Positions 1 to 57,365 of a stretch of 64,000 bases of DNA are shown here, in pieces (the stretch's first letter is position 1; each line of letters begins with the position of its first letter). The DNA comes from Bdellovibrionales bacterium. Its GTDB lineage: Bacteria > Bdellovibrionota > Bdellovibrionia > Bdellovibrionales > UBA1609. The position numbers and the translations under genes were made by a program. Where the stretch lies: assembly GCA_965205645.1 (NCBI GenBank), contig OZ242172.1, positions 896,122-960,121 on the forward strand, read 5' to 3'. The notes under the pieces were generated by a model. That model had not been told where the DNA came from, ran no database searches, and saw only the letters and a program-made list of their open reading frames with translations.

Positions 1-403
1 CAATTCAGTGATATTTGGATGAGCAAAAAACTTAGAATATATATTTAATATCTTATCTTTATATTTTTTCGTAGGAAGCTGATGCACACTATGAAATAAT
101 TGGTTTGTATTAAGTACAGTATTGCTTGAACTACTCATAATAATTTCAAACAGTTCCCATTGTGCAAGAATAATTATATAATGTTTAAACAAACCTTTCC
201 ATGCAATCTCATCACCTTCCCAAAAAAGATTAGTAAGGTTTTCCACTGGATCATTCAGTTCTTCTGGAGAAGGAAAGTAAATTTCTTCTTTTTCCAATTC
301 TTTATACTGGAAGATATGACACAGTTTACGAAAACGATATAAATAAGGAGGCTCTAATAATTTATTTTTAGATAAACTGTTAATTATATGTTCGTTTTTC
401 ATA
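1..403 (-). CDS. DUF2971-family protein (partial; 3' end lies outside the window)
   Basis: My own minus-strand translation from the ATG at 403..401 (RBS AAGGTGA upstream) stays open to the window edge: MKNEHIINSLSKNKLLEPPYLYRFRKLCHIFQYKELEKEEIYFPSPEELNDPVENL... The LYRFR...EIYFPSP.ELNDP.E pattern is the DUF2971 signature. It is absent from the ORF track because there is no stop in the window. Confidence 0.6.
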
Positions 404-51837: not shown

Positions 51838-53048
51838 AACTCTTTTACCTGTTGAGCAATATTTTTTAAATGTTTTTCATTATCTGGCTTTTCCAAAGCT
51901 TGATGAATCCATTGGGCAATATATTTCATTTCTGCTGTTCCCATTCCTCGTGTAGTCACTGCTGGAGTTCCTATGCGAATGCCGCTGGTGACAAAAGGTG
52001 ATTTTGTTTCACCCGGCACTGTATTTTTATTAACTGTGATTCCAGCTTGTTCTAAAACGCGTTCTGCTTTTTTTCCTGTGATATTTTTATTAGAAAGATC
52101 AATTAAAATCAAATGATTATCCGTGCCACCAGTGACTAAAGAAAATTCATAATTGATCAAATGTTTAGCTAATATTTTTGCATTAGAAACAACAGTTTGC
52201 GCATATTTTTTAAAGGAATCTTGTAAAGCTTCTTGAAAGGCAATCGCTTTTCCAGCAATGGTATGCATTAAAGGTCCACCTTGTATGCCAGGGAAGATGG
52301 ACGAGTTTAATTTTTTACTGTTTTTCATAGGACAAAGGATAAGCCCTCCTCTCGGGCCTCTTAGTGTTTTATGGGTAGTGGAAGTGACAAAATCTGCATA
52401 GGGAATGGGGGAGGAGTGTACGTTTCCGGCGACTAGTCCGGCAAAGTGTGCCATATCTACGATGAGAGTTGCTCCCACTTGGTCTGCAATTTGTCGGAAG
52501 TTTTTAAAATCAAGTGTTCGTGGGTAAGCACTGTACCCTGCAATGAGTAGGCGGGGTTTTTGCTTTTTAGCTTGTTGTTCAATGTGGTTATAATCCAACC
52601 AACCGGTTTTTGGATCTGTTTGATAAGAAGTGGATCGAAATATAAAACCGCTAAAATTAACAATGGATCCATGTGTTAAATGTCCACCACAAGATAGATC
52701 CATTCCCATAATGGTATCACCAGGTTTGGCTGCGGCAAAGTATACTGCCATATTCGCTTGTGATCCGGAGTGTGGTTGAACATTTGCATATTCTGCTGAA
52801 AATAATTTTTGTGCACGGGCAATAGCTAATGTTTCACAAATATCTACAAATTTGCAGCCACCGTAATATCTTTTACCTGGATAACCTTCCGCATATTTGT
52901 TCGTTAGTATGGAACCCTGTGCTTGTAGAACAGCAGTAGAGGTGTAATTTTCAGAAGCGATTAACTCTAAACCATTTTTTTGCCGTGCTTTTTCTTGTTC
53001 AATCGCTTGAAAAATTTTCGGGTCAATGTGTTGCAAACCAGTTTTCAT
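51810..53048 (-). CDS. glyA: serine hydroxymethyltransferase
   Basis: [18 protein letters not shown], and [12 protein letters not shown] (PLP lysine). I chose the ATG at 53048, directly after the rpiB stop, over the GTG at 53060. Confidence 0.96.
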
Positions 53049-53536
53049 GTGTTCTTCCACCGATCTATTTGCTGTACTCTTTTCAAATGTCGTCCTTTTT
53101 TAAAAGGGGTGCAAATAAAAGTTTGTAAAATTTGATGGGCCATTTTACGAGAAATTAACCGCGCTCCTAGGCATAATACATTTGCGTTATTGTGTTCTCT
53201 GGCCAATTGCGTACTTTCTACATTCCACACTGCTGCTGCTCGGATGCCACTAAAGCGATTAGCTGCCATCGCCATTCCTTGTCCACTACCACAAATAAGG
53301 ACTCCTTTACCTCCATCTTTTTTTATTTTCCGGCAGAGTGTCTGTGCAAGCTGTGGATAATTGCTTTTTCGTTCATTGTGCACTCCCAAATCTTCCCAAC
53401 ATTGCTCCGGATTTTTCTTTATTAAAAAATTTTTTAGCAAAAAACCTGCATGATCATTTGCAATAAAAATTTTTCTCCCTTCAAGGGGGGAGTGATTTCG
53501 CCGCGATTCTATTGCATCTATTTCACTGTTTTGCAT
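53045..53536 (-). CDS. rpiB: ribose-5-phosphate isomerase B with repeat-derived 20-aa N-terminal extension
   Basis: The RpiB core is [14 protein letters not shown]...[22 protein letters not shown]...[16 protein letters not shown]. The only canonical in-frame start (ATG 53536) lies inside a copy of the GC-rich repeat. Confidence 0.88.
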
Positions 53537-53545
53537 ATTATGTTT
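53475..53545 (-). repeat. single terminal-type unit of the GC-rich modular repeat overlapping the rpiB 5' end
   Basis: The minus strand reads AAACATAATATGCAAAACAGTGAAATAGATGCAATAGAATCGCGGCGAAATCACTCCCCCCTTGAAGGGAG, that is box 1 + box 2 + hairpin. Confidence 0.85.
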
Positions 53546-53816
53546 ATTCAGCCAGTATTTTTACGAGAAGGCAAAATAGAAATCATTCATTTAATGTTAT
53601 TTTCTATGTTTCATGTATATGATTATTATTGTTTAGTTGTCTGTATAGTTATAAATAATATTTTCTTTTTCATAAAATTCTACAATTTTTAATATTTTAA
53701 CATATAAAATTTATTATTTCTCTCATTTTTTAGGCATTATTCTTTATTTTAGTTTTTTATAAACCGAAATGTAAACTAAAGTAGCTAGTGAAAAGTCTTT
53801 AAGGGAGCCTAAAGGT

Positions 53817-54587
53817 ATGAAAACAAGAAAATGGTTACTGATATACACATCACTGCTACTGCTAGTGCTAATGAACTGTCAGGTGTTTAAAGCAAATAGA
53901 AAGCCGCAATCTGCAGGTTTTAGAGGGTATTGCCCCAATTGTTTAGTAAAAAGTATTGGTAAAGATGTAAAACAACTGCAAAAAATAATACAAAAAAGTA
54001 ATCTAAAATTAGTTGATCATCAGCCTGTTCAAACTCCTCCTATCGATCGTTCTAGTAACAGTTCTCATACATGGTCATGCTCGTTTGCCTGCGAATGGTT
54101 TAAAAATGGATCAAGAGATGGATACATTATAACAAAACACGGTAGCTCCACAAAAGAGGTAGTGCTGGCAGCACAAAATAAATGCCGGACAGACACTGAT
54201 TATAAAGGGGTTCTTATTGACAATCTAGTATGGGGCAGCTACGAGCGTTTTATTCCTCTTCAAATCAGCATTCGTAGTTCTTGTTCCAAAAATTCTACCT
54301 CCTCTCAGCCCCAGCGTTTCTCTTGTATAGCTTATTCCGCAGAGGTTGTTCCTGTACATGTCGCAAATCATTACCATGATGGCTGGCTTTGGAATAATTA
54401 TACAGTTCCTGTTATTAGGAATAAAATTTTTAAGAATCTTGAAGTGTCTTCTGGACCGACTATGAAGGAAGCCTTTAGTCAATTGATGAGTAACAAACAG
54501 TATCGCACTTTGATTGTATCCAGCAGTGTACACTATACAGAAATTGTTCCTGTGAAATCTCCAGAAGAAGTTTGCGTCCAGAATTAA
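53817..54587 (+). CDS. lipoprotein sharing only the long-form leader module of the VPNFA-IHK family (P4, chimeric)
   Basis: The first ~70 aa are homologous to P2, P3 and P6: LMNCQVFKANRKPQSAGFRGYCPNCLVKSIGKDVKQLQKIIQKSN. The remaining ~185 aa are an unrelated Cys-containing domain. Confidence 0.75.
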   Translation: MKTRKWLLIYTSLLLLVLMNCQVFKANRKPQSAGFRGYCPNCLVKSIGKDVKQLQKIIQKSNLKLVDHQPVQTPPIDRSSNSSHTWSCSFACEWFKNGSRDGYIITKHGSSTKEVVLAAQNKCRTDTDYKGVLIDNLVWGSYERFIPLQISIRSSCSKNSTSSQPQRFSCIAYSAEVVPVHVANHYHDGWLWNNYTVPVIRNKIFKNLEVSSGPTMKEAFSQLMSNKQYRTLIVSSSVHYTEIVPVKSPEEVCVQN

Positions 54588-56965: not shown

Positions 56966-56990
56966 TTAATAAGTATAACTTAATATCATT

Positions 56991-57022
56991 AAAAGCCGGA
57001 TTTTTTATCCGGCTTTTTTTTT
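56991..57022 (+). terminator. Rho-independent terminator
   Basis: GCCGGA (56995-57000) and TCCGGC (57008-13) form a hairpin followed by T9. Confidence 0.85.
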
Positions 57023-57365
57023 ACCCCCAAAGGGGCCGCCCCCAGAGGGGGTGACTTCGCCGCGATTCCGCTGCTTCCATGTGACAACTTTGCATATCAT
57101 GTTTACCAATAATGTCTCCGGCGACCCGCCGCCCCCAGAGGGGGTGACTTCGCCGCGATTCCGCTGCTTCCATGTGACAACTTTGCATATCATGTTTACC
57201 AATAATGTCTCCGGCGACCCGCCGCCCCCAGAGGGGGTGACTTCGCCGCGATTCCGCTGCTTCCATGTGACAACTTTGCAAATTATGTTTACAAGTGTCT
57301 CCGGCGACCCGCCGCCCCCACGATTCCGTTGCACGCATGTCACTATCTTACAAATTATGTTTAAC
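57023..57365 (-). repeat. intergenic array of the GC-rich modular repeat: 3 x 93-nt units + one terminal unit (reverse orientation)
   Basis: A 93-nt periodicity was verified at 57044, 57137 and 57230. On the minus strand each unit reads AAACAT(G/A)AT(A/T)TGCAAAGTTGTCACATGGAAGCAGCGGAATCGCGGCGAAGTCACCCCCTCTGGGGGCGGCGGGTCGCCGGAGAC... Confidence 0.95.

What the first reader, a model, noticed from the sequence alone, without database searches (positions are those of the whole stretch)
53475..53545. The rpiB start codon and first 20 codons are supplied by a repeat unit
The RpiB core begins at ...[11 protein letters not shown]. No ATG, GTG or TTG exists in frame between there and the ATG at 53536. 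That ATG lies in box 1 of a complete terminal-type element: AAACATAATATGCAAAACAGTGAAA...GAATCGCGGCGAAATCACTCCCCCCTTGAAGGG. In other copies the same position reads TTG (CATAATTTGCAA). The element can therefore provide translation starts, and its CATAAT may provide a -10-like hexamer. This would make it a potential gene-expression module as well as a passenger.
Basis: partly seen in the sequence, partly recalled or inferred. Interest (0 to 1): 0.62.

Follow-up and report, generated by a model that had tools for sequence, protein, structure and literature searches.

The report
Repeat element donates rpiB start codon
The only ordinary start codon of this bacterium's sole ribose-5-phosphate isomerase gene lies inside an old copy of a genome-wide selfish repeat, so the enzyme probably begins with a floppy 21-residue tail borrowed from that repeat; this is a plausible but unproven single case of a kind already known from other bacteria.

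Summary
Window 53546-53475 (minus strand) is a significant copy (nhmmer E 6e-14) of the "terminal-type" unit of a dispersed repeat. The family has about 150 units in 86 arrays in this 1.56-Mb, 36%-GC genome, and 44 arrays lie sense and in one frame inside long ORFs.

- **Start codon.** The ATG at 53536 is in box 1. It is the only in-frame ATG/GTG/TTG between the upstream TAA (53563-53561) and the RpiB core (K22-I23-F-I-A-N-D-H-A-G).
- **The gene looks live.** The core is intact, with dN/dS 0.11 against its closest relative. It is the only R5P isomerase (no rpiA) and overlaps glyA by ATGA.
- **Relatives.** None of 14 same-genus genomes, nor a syntenic sponge-metagenome contig, has the element at rpiB.
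- **Best reading (about 0.6).** Translation starts at the element's ATG and gives a disordered 21-residue tail (AF2 pLDDT below 50).
- **Main rival (about 0.2).** An ATT start at 53470, served by the element's hairpin arm GGGAG as a strong Shine-Dalgarno 4 nt upstream.
- **CATAAT as a -10.** This is unsupported. For rpiB it also conflicts with use of the ATG that directly follows it.
- **General claim.** Three other 5'-terminal copies (murJ, an EF-G-type gene, trhO-like) all have ordinary starts downstream, so it rests on rpiB alone.

No read data could be used. This is a new member of a known kind (Neisseria REP2, Borrelia IR, MIRU).

The parts
53045..53536 (-). rpiB as read from the element-borne ATG (163 aa). 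Residues 1-21 are the repeat-derived tail; residues 22-163 are the RpiB core.
   Evidence: ORF list. Pfam PF02502 1.7e-45, residues 23-157. NCBIfam NF004051 154 bits, above its 135-bit cut-off. AF2 core pLDDT above 90.
53475..53546 (-). One terminal-type unit of the dispersed repeat: box 1 TAAACATAATATGCAAAACAGTGAAA, box 2 GAATCGCGGCGAAAT, then the C-run/G-run hairpin.
   Evidence: nhmmer 52-66 bits, E 6e-14 to 4e-18. Repeat families D13 and I9. 53/70 identical to the consensus, and 13 of 17 differences are GC->AT.
53534..53536 (-). ATG in box 1. It is the only canonical in-frame start and the proposed rpiB initiation codon.
   Evidence: list of starts. (ATG in 6/127 copies, TTG in 67). SD duplex only -3.6 kcal/mol, which is ordinary here because about 45% of unambiguous starts are weaker than -4.
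53537..53542 (-).
   Evidence: Not called by the promoter scan. It directly abuts the ATG, so a transcript started from it would lack that ATG.
53475..53492 (-). Terminal hairpin CTCCC-CCCTTGAA-GGGAG. Its 3' arm GGGAG (53479-53475) resembles a Shine-Dalgarno site.
   Evidence: Terminator-like call with 5 pairs and an 8-nt loop. It is the only element kept in the centroid fold. Duplex with the 16S tail GAUCACCUCCUUUCU is -12.4 kcal/mol.
53468..53470 (-). ATT (I23), the rival non-canonical start, 4 nt downstream of GGGAG.
   Evidence: Sequence. In the SD spacing profile, a motif start at -8 is seen 22 times against a peak of 55. Energies.
53561..53563 (-). In-frame TAA that closes the frame 8 codons upstream of the ATG.
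53547..53816 (.). AT-rich spacer between rpiB (-) and the divergent 256-aa gene (+). Its distal part aligns with the sponge-metagenome relative and holds a promoter-like site, TTTACA-18-TAAAAT (53775-53746, minus).
   Evidence: Alignment A1. Promoter scan found 3 sites against 2.7 expected, so this is a weak call. No Rfam family matched.
53045..53048 (-). ATGA overlap of the rpiB stop (TGA) with the glyA start (ATG), an arrangement typical of translational coupling.
   Evidence: Sequence. The same 4-nt overlap is present in L101.

Best explanation
An old copy of a lineage-specific, RPE-like coding repeat sits at the 5' end of rpiB in the same sense and frame in which the family is tolerated inside other genes. 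The gene's own start and short leader were lost or displaced. Translation now most likely begins at the ATG of the element's box 1, a T-to-A variant of the usual TTG. That adds a 21-residue disordered tail ([21 protein letters not shown]) in front of strand beta-1 of an otherwise normal RpiB. Transcription would come from the AT-rich spacer upstream, not from the element.

Shown: the anatomy, family membership, the absence of another canonical start, the integrity and selective constraint of the core, absence of the element at rpiB in relatives, and predicted disorder of the tail.

Inferred: that the ATG is the codon actually used, and the order of events (in-frame insertion into the leader or at the start, then takeover by the element codon).
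For: - The ATG is the only canonical in-frame start.
- The element is a significant family member, read in family frame f0.
- 44 of 86 arrays lie sense in long ORFs against 5 antisense, so in-frame translation of this family is the rule.
- ATG occurs in 6/127 copies, but in 2 of the 4 copies at ORF 5' ends with no upstream start (p = 0.011).
- The T-to-A change is the copy's only A/T swap among 17 differences, 13 of which are GC->AT decay.
- A start without a Shine-Dalgarno is normal here. Only 41% of 251 unambiguous starts reach -5 kcal/mol.
- The ATG lies in an unpaired A-rich stretch.
- rpiB must be expressed. There is no PF06026 rpiA and only one RpiB match in the genome. Core dN/dS is 0.11. 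All 41 genomes searched (own plus 40 relatives) have rpiB. The gene overlaps glyA by ATGA.
- N-terminal leaders of 1-19 aa, unconserved, are common in the clade.
- AF2 gives pLDDT 44-49 for residues 1-20 and above 90 for the core.
- The public gene call for this genome is the same 163-aa protein (P0001). That is annotation only.
Against: - There are no transcript, ribosome or peptide data.
- No Shine-Dalgarno precedes the ATG (-3.6 kcal/mol), whereas a very strong one precedes the ATT at 53470.
- G006, of the same genus, has an rpiB with no canonical start. There a CTG lies 4 nt after AAAGGAG, so weak non-canonical initiation seems tolerated for this gene.
- The open frame through the element is not evidence of translation, because frame f0 is open in nearly all copies.
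- The ATG-enrichment test is post hoc, on 4 cases.
- No closer relative exists in the searched collections to test conservation of the tail.
Confidence: 0.6

Rival explanations
1. The element lies in the 5' untranslated leader, and rpiB starts at the non-canonical ATT (53470-53468, I23). The ribosome-binding site would be the G-rich 3' arm of the element's hairpin (GAAGGGAG), 4 nt upstream. On this reading the element donates a Shine-Dalgarno, not a start codon, and the protein begins (M)FIANDHAG.
For: - The duplex of CCCCCCTTGAAGGGAGAA with the 16S tail is -12.4 kcal/mol. Only 17% of 251 unambiguous starts reach even -8 kcal/mol.
- The 4-nt spacing is within the observed range.
- At genome position 761524 the same hairpin arm, extended to GGGAGGAGG, sits 7 nt before the ATG of ybeY. 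In the trhO-like gene the G-run precedes a GTG at the domain start.
- G006 rpiB has no canonical start and shows AAAGGAG-N4-CTG.
- Intergenic sense copies 34-70 nt upstream of genes exist, so a 5'-UTR location is normal for the family.
- AF2 places beta-1 at residues 23-27, so a start at I23 keeps the fold.
Against: - ATT is a very poor initiator in studied bacteria (own knowledge: well under a few percent of ATG in E. coli).
- The SD-like word is a built-in feature of every terminal unit, so its presence is not evidence of use.
- It is sequestered in the 3' arm of the one hairpin kept in the centroid fold.
- The spacing is shorter than the genome's optimum.
- An in-frame ATG in an unpaired context lies 66 nt upstream and would be translated through it anyway.
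Confidence: 0.22
2. rpiB has lost its start through the insertion and is no longer translated, or only at trace level. It would be a recent pseudogene whose core has not yet decayed.
For: - There is no canonical start at the family-typical position.
- The genome is small (1.56 Mb) and estimated 92% complete.
- The hairpin followed by A5T5 was flagged as terminator-like directly in front of the core.
Against: - The core has no stops or frameshifts, and all 24 invariant family columns are kept.
- dN/dS is 0.11.
- It is the sole R5P isomerase in the genome.
- It is ATGA-coupled to glyA.
- The copy is old (24% diverged from the consensus, GC 41% against 56%), yet the core stayed intact over that time.
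- The 'terminator' has 5 pairs, an 8-nt loop and an A-tract before the T-tract, so it is weak.
Confidence: 0.06
3. The element acts as a promoter module. Box-1 CATAAT would be the -10 for rpiB-glyA, with the transcript starting inside the element. This would combine with the ATT-start rival.
For: - CATAAT matches TATAAT at 5/6 positions and keeps A2 and T6.
- Sigma-70 promoters carried on small repeats are known: Correia, QMITE1 and QMITE2.
Against: - No -35 partner reaches 4/6 at 16-18 nt, so the site is not called.
- In multi-unit arrays the region 17 nt upstream of CATAAT is GC-rich linker with no TTGACA-like word.
- Most copies lie inside genes in sense orientation, where a promoter has no evident role.
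- The 270-nt AT-rich spacer upstream already contains better promoter-like sites, partly conserved in L101.
Confidence: 0.05

Closest known systems
Neisseria REP2 repeats and the similar Borrelia plasmid IR sequences (Parkhill 2000; Morelle 2003; Dunn 1994, as reviewed in PMC3184786)
   Same: A dispersed small repeat is fused to open reading frames so that the gene's initiation codon lies inside the repeat.
   Different: - REP2 and the Borrelia IRs carry promoter, RBS and ATG as a package at their 3' end and sit upstream of genes as a rule.
- Here no promoter or RBS is detectable in front of the ATG.
- The ATG is in the 5' part of the unit, so 60 nt of repeat are translated.
- Most copies are intragenic, and only one gene depends on it.
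Rickettsia palindromic elements (RPE; Ogata et al. 2000, as reviewed in PMC10969869 and PMC1779305)
   Same: A short hairpin-bearing repeat sits both between genes and in frame inside unrelated housekeeping genes, where it is tolerated as extra peptide.
   Different: - The host lineage differs: an uncultured lineage labelled Bdellovibrionales.
- The element has modular 69-93-nt units that form tandem arrays, not 100-150-bp single palindromes.
- The reviews read here do not describe an RPE supplying a start codon.
- Sequence relatedness to RPEs was not tested.
Mycobacterial interspersed repetitive units (MIRU; Supply et al. 1997).
   Same: A repeat at gene boundaries preserves expression of the downstream gene by bringing translation signals with it.
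   Different: - MIRUs sit in stop/start junctions inside operons, with overlapping stop and start codons.
- The rpiB copy is at the head of an operon, next to a divergent gene, and adds a 21-aa tail.
Correia elements (Neisseria) and QMITE1/QMITE2 (Coxiella): repeats carrying sigma-70 promoters (PMC10969869, PMC5896051)
   Same: QMITE2 provides the -10 of the sRNA CbsR16.
   Different: - No promoter-like geometry is found here.
- The Coxiella paper notes that no QMITE affects the 5' end of a gene of known function. The rpiB case is such a 5'-end case.

Membership tests
The genome's own modular in-frame repeat family (unnamed; box 1 / box 2 / hairpin) | Significant match to a profile built from the other copies | tested here: met
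   nhmmer with the 2nd-iteration HMM (151 units): 52 bits, E 6e-14, positions 2-71 of 74, no gaps.
The genome's own modular in-frame repeat family (unnamed; box 1 / box 2 / hairpin) | Box 1 CATRAT-NTG-CAA...GTGAMA, box 2 GAATCGCGGCGAA, and a terminal C-run/G-run hairpin, in that order | tested here: met
   The copy reads CATAAT-ATG-CAAAACAGTGAAA ... GAATCGCGGCGAAAT ... CTCCCCCCTTGAAGGGAG.
The genome's own modular in-frame repeat family (unnamed; box 1 / box 2 / hairpin) | Read in frame f0 (H-N-L/M/V-Q-x-S-D ... E-S-R-R-x-H-S-P-L-G-G) when inside a gene | tested here: met
   The rpiB tail (K)[22 protein letters not shown] is in the same frame as RDMRAAESRRSHSPLGGG at 699131 and as the murJ and trhO-like copies.
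RpiB (ribose-5-phosphate isomerase B, PF02502 / NF004051) | Profile match above the curated cut-off, with family-invariant residues kept | tested here: met
   PF02502 154.8 bits (cut-off 24.7). NF004051 154.2 bits (cut-off 135). TIGR01120 135.2 bits, just under its 138.65 cut-off. D28, H29, C82 and R153 are among the invariant columns and are present.
Neisseria REP2 / Borrelia IR type 'promoter + RBS + ATG' repeats | Promoter inside the repeat | tested here: not met
   No promoter-like site overlaps 53475-53546.
Neisseria REP2 / Borrelia IR type 'promoter + RBS + ATG' repeats | Ribosome-binding site inside the repeat, upstream of its ATG | tested here: not met
   The upstream 18 nt ACTGGCTGAATAAACATA pair with the 16S tail at only -3.6 kcal/mol.
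Neisseria REP2 / Borrelia IR type 'promoter + RBS + ATG' repeats | Copies sit immediately upstream of genes as a rule, with the repeat ATG fused to the ORF | tested here: not met
   44 of 86 arrays are internal to long ORFs. Only 4 units head a long ORF, and only rpiB lacks another start.
Rickettsia palindromic elements | Frequent in-frame, sense insertion in unrelated housekeeping genes | tested here: met
   44 sense against 5 antisense arrays in ORFs of at least 120 codons. Hosts include ExoIII, an AmpD-like amidase, MurJ, an EF-G-type GTPase and YbeY.
Rickettsia palindromic elements | Sequence homology to RPE-1..10 and occurrence in Rickettsiales | not tested
   No RPE sequences were compared. 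The host is a lineage labelled Bdellovibrionales in public records. Among 15 genus genomes, box 1 is found only in this one.
MIRU-type junction repeats | Located at stop/start junctions within operons, with overlapping stop and start codons | tested here: not met
   Upstream of the element is a 270-nt spacer and a divergent gene. The in-frame TAA lies 24 nt upstream of the ATG and ends no gene.

The most novel reading that the evidence does not exclude
The family may be more than a tolerated passenger and could be pre-adapted as a portable 5' module. Its box-1 codon is start-capable (TTG/GTG/ATG) in 87 of 127 copies. The rare ATG form is enriched in copies that head genes (rpiB, murJ). The G-rich hairpin arm doubles as a Shine-Dalgarno for whatever lies downstream (ybeY, the trhO-like gene, possibly rpiB). 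On this reading an insertion at or near a gene's 5' end can replace the gene's own initiation signals in two alternative ways. That would explain how such an element survives at the 5' ends of essential genes, and selection would have tuned individual copies (TTG->ATG).
Probability: 0.2. Interest if true: 0.55.

Novelty: new member of a known kind. Interest (0 to 1): 0.33.

Why it matters
If the ATG is used, an essential central-metabolism enzyme owes its initiation codon and first 21 residues to selfish DNA. That is a clean natural example of start-codon turnover by repeat insertion and of de novo N-terminal sequence from a mobile repeat. It also shows that an RPE-like family can be tolerated at gene 5' ends as well as in surface loops.

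In practice it is a caution for annotation. Automatic callers take the ATG, but an ATT start with an element-derived ribosome-binding site cannot be excluded.

The wider significance is limited. Only one gene depends on the element, the principle is already known from Neisseria REP2, Borrelia IRs and MIRUs, and the organism is uncultured, so experiments must use heterologous systems.

Tried and rejected
- **Read-level evidence.** No transcription start, coverage or empty-site reads could be examined.
- **A decayed orthologous copy in the closest relative.** I asked whether the 18-aa leader of L101 (80% aa identity, syntenic) is a decayed copy of the element. nhmmer gives no hit there even at E 100. 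A local alignment scores no better than 10% of shuffles. A shared 12-mer, AATAATGTAAAT, with another unit is not significant. This idea is rejected as unproven.
- **Independent replication in the genus.** I tried to replicate the ATG-at-5'-ends enrichment in the 14 other genus genomes. Box 1 is absent from all of them, so replication is not possible.
- **Open frame as evidence of translation.** Rejected, because frame f0 is open in almost all copies. Only about two consensus codons are one decay-type mutation away from a stop.
- **Known RNA family in the leader.** A riboswitch in front of glyA, for example, was considered. Rfam gave no match at E <= 1.
- **Hairpin as an intrinsic terminator.** It has 5 pairs, an 8-nt loop and an A5 tract before the T5 tract, and the overall fold z-score is 0.1. 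This is judged unlikely.
- **Other near-cognate codons.** ATA at I6 and I9, CTT at L18 and the upstream CTG at 53551 have no SD-like support (-0.3 to -3.9 kcal/mol).

Full report
**What is there**

On the minus strand, an ORF runs from the ATG at 53536 to the TGA at 53047-53045. It encodes 163 aa, [32 protein letters not shown].... Pfam LacAB_rpiB matches residues 23-157 from profile position 1 (1.7e-45). NCBIfam ribose-5-phosphate isomerase B models begin at residue 22, and NF004051 scores 154 bits against a 135-bit cut-off. The recognisable enzyme therefore starts at K22-I23.

In the stop-to-stop frame, the upstream TAA is at 53563-53561. The only ATG/GTG/TTG before the core is the ATG at 53536. 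The next one is a TTG after the DHAG motif.

**The 5' end is a repeat unit**

The genome is one contig of 1,555,701 bases at 35.7% GC, and the window is C1:896122-960121. I built a profile from four terminal-type units in the window and iterated it once on the genome. It finds 151 units in 86 arrays. The rpiB copy (genome 949667-949598, window 53546-53477) aligns without gaps at 52 bits, E 6e-14.

The copy has box 1 (TAAACATAATATGCAAAACAGTGAAA), box 2 (GAATCGCGGCGAAAT) and the terminal hairpin CTCCC-CCCTTGAA-GGGAG, which runs to 53475. The element thus supplies codons 1-20 and the first two bases of codon 21 (AGA).

The copy is 53/70 identical to the family consensus. Thirteen of its 17 differences are GC->AT, and its GC content is 41% against 56% for the consensus. 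It is an old, decayed copy, not a fresh insertion.

**How the family behaves**

- Of 86 arrays, 44 lie in the sense orientation inside stop-to-stop ORFs of at least 120 codons. Five lie antisense and 37 lie outside long ORFs.
- One frame (f0, reading H-N-L-Q-x-S-D...) is open in almost every unit.
- Hosts include exonuclease III and an AmpD-like amidase in this window, and MurJ, an EF-G-type GTPase, a UPF0176/rhodanese (TrhO-like) protein and YbeY elsewhere.
- This agrees with earlier notes of this scan that describe the family as RPE-like.
- The rpiB tail is read in f0. Its second half ([11 protein letters not shown]) matches the peptide variant seen in other genes, for example RDMRAAESRRSHSPLGGG.

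**Is the element ATG special?**

Among 127 box-1 copies the codon at this position is TTG 67, TTA 22, GTG 14, TGG 8 and ATG 6. A reversed-sequence control gave 4 box-1 hits.

Four units head a long ORF (at least 100 codons downstream) with no canonical start upstream of them: murJ (ATG), rpiB (ATG), the EF-G-type gene (TTG) and the trhO-like gene (TTG). Two ATG among these four, against four among the other 123, gives p = 0.011. This is suggestive, but it is post hoc and based on four cases.

The T->A change that makes the rpiB ATG is that copy's only A/T swap.

The other three genes have ordinary starts just downstream of the element, at the point where their Pfam domains or family-typical N-termini begin. 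Only rpiB depends on the element codon.

**Does rpiB need to be expressed?**

- The genome has no PF06026 (rpiA) match, while the control genomes do. It has a single RpiB match.
- All 41 genomes searched (this one plus 40 relatives) carry rpiB.
- Against the closest relative (P0002 on L101, a sponge-metagenome contig with the same DHOase-hyp-rpiB-glyA neighbourhood, 81% core identity), the core has dN 0.116, dS 1.02 and dN/dS 0.11. The leaders share only 2 of 18 aligned residues.
- The rpiB stop overlaps the glyA ATG (ATGA), as it does in L101.
- A dead gene is therefore unlikely.

**Relatives lack the element at rpiB**

In 14 same-genus genomes the gene starts 3-12 codons before [10 protein letters not shown], with unrelated K/N-rich leaders. 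The family profile hits none of those loci.

L101 carries a family unit at its contig end (10547-10598, E 8e-10) but none at rpiB. Its TTG-initiated 18-aa leader is not significantly similar to the element.

Box 1 occurs in none of the other 14 genus genomes. The family is therefore specific to this species-level lineage and its sponge-metagenome relative.

Annotated leaders of up to 19 aa occur in homologues, so a 21-aa tail is within what the fold tolerates. AlphaFold2 on a 48-sequence alignment gives pLDDT 44-49 with no secondary structure for residues 1-20. It gives pLDDT above 90 for the core, with beta-1 at residues 23-27.

**The rival start**

The 16S tail is GAUCACCUCCUUUCU, and Shine-Dalgarno words peak 9-13 nt before starts. 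Usage is moderate. Of 251 unambiguous starts, 41% reach -5 kcal/mol (background 22%) and about 45% are weaker than -4.

The element ATG has -3.6 kcal/mol, which is ordinary for this genome. It lies in an unpaired A-rich stretch.

The ATT at 53470 (I23) is preceded at 4 nt by GAAGGGAG, the hairpin's 3' arm. That gives -12.4 kcal/mol; only 17% of the 251 unambiguous starts reach even -8.

Points in favour of the ATT:
- The same arm appears to serve as the ribosome-binding site of ybeY, as GGGAGGAGG-N7-ATG.
- G006 of the same genus has an rpiB with no canonical start, with AAAGGAG-N4-CTG.

Points against the ATT:
- The word is present in every terminal unit, so its presence is not evidence of use.
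- It is paired in the one hairpin that survives in the centroid fold.
- ATT is a very weak initiator (own knowledge).

I put the ATG at about 0.6, the ATT at about 0.2, and the remainder on a dead gene or other arrangements.

**The -10 idea**

CATAAT (53542-53537) finds no acceptable -35, and the scan does not call it. Better promoter-like sites lie in the AT-rich spacer, in a stretch that aligns with L101, although the number of sites is no higher than in shuffles.

Because the ATG follows CATAAT directly, a transcript started from that hexamer would lack the ATG.

No Rfam family matches the leader.

**Comparison with what is known**

- Repeats that bring an initiation codon to genes are described for Neisseria REP2 and Borrelia IR sequences (promoter + RBS + ATG; PMC3184786). 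They are also known for MIRUs, which I cite from my own knowledge and earlier notes of this scan rather than from a passage read here.
- Promoters on Correia and QMITE elements are described in PMC10969869 and PMC5896051.
- RPEs are the classic in-frame passengers.
- The rpiB case works like a REP2-type start donation but fails REP2's defining features: there is no promoter and no RBS, and most copies are intragenic.
- It is best seen as a single case in which a gene has adopted a codon from an RPE-like coding repeat.

**Limits**

- No closer relative is available.
- The statistics rest on few cases.
- Gene boundaries elsewhere in the genome come from my own ORF heuristics, not a trained gene caller.

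Noticed in passing
L009 (G006:C1:859439-862855), about 40 nt upstream of the rpiB core: The rpiB of a same-genus genome has no ATG/GTG/TTG between the upstream TGA and [10 protein letters not shown]. The likely start is a CTG 4 nt after AAAGGAG. This is a second rpiB in the genus with an unusual start, and it has no repeat element.
   Followed up: partly
G000:C1:761352-761570 (outside the window): The terminal hairpin arm of a two-unit array, extended to GGGAGGAGG, lies 7 nt before the ATG of ybeY and looks like its Shine-Dalgarno. The same ybeY also carries family units in frame further in.
   Followed up: partly
window 53045-53048: The rpiB stop and glyA start overlap as ATGA, and the same overlap is conserved in the sponge-metagenome relative L101. 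The ORF lister's GTG at 53060 for glyA is probably 4 codons too long.
   Followed up: partly
L101:10547-10598: The sponge-metagenome contig (SRR1576521 assembly) that holds the closest rpiB ends in a terminal-type unit of the same repeat family. The family is therefore shared with that relative, although box 1 is absent from the 14 other genus genomes.
   Followed up: partly
G000:C1:759413-759760 (outside the window): In front of murJ, the last unit of a three-unit array carries the rare ATG variant. The flank GGGGGTGCGGTT occurs both before and after that unit, as if the unit had been duplicated together with the first bases of murJ.
   Followed up: no
L003 (G005:C1), about 40-85 nt upstream of rpiB: A different short tandem repeat, CCATGATACAGGGAA(A/C)CC x2, lies just upstream of the rpiB start in another genus member. 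It is not a hit to this family's profile.
   Followed up: no
window 53740-53860 versus L101:5640-5780: The half of the rpiB spacer nearest the divergent gene aligns well with L101 (the two-sequence alignment of the whole region averages 77% column identity). The conserved block CTTTAGTTTA.A..TCGGTTTATAA.AAAC overlaps the best promoter-like site. The half next to rpiB does not align.
   Followed up: partly
window 56985-57035: The four-unit intergenic array at 57030-57363 (minus) is followed by a clean terminator-like hairpin, AAAAAAAAAGCCGGATAAAAAATCCGGCTTTT.
   Followed up: no
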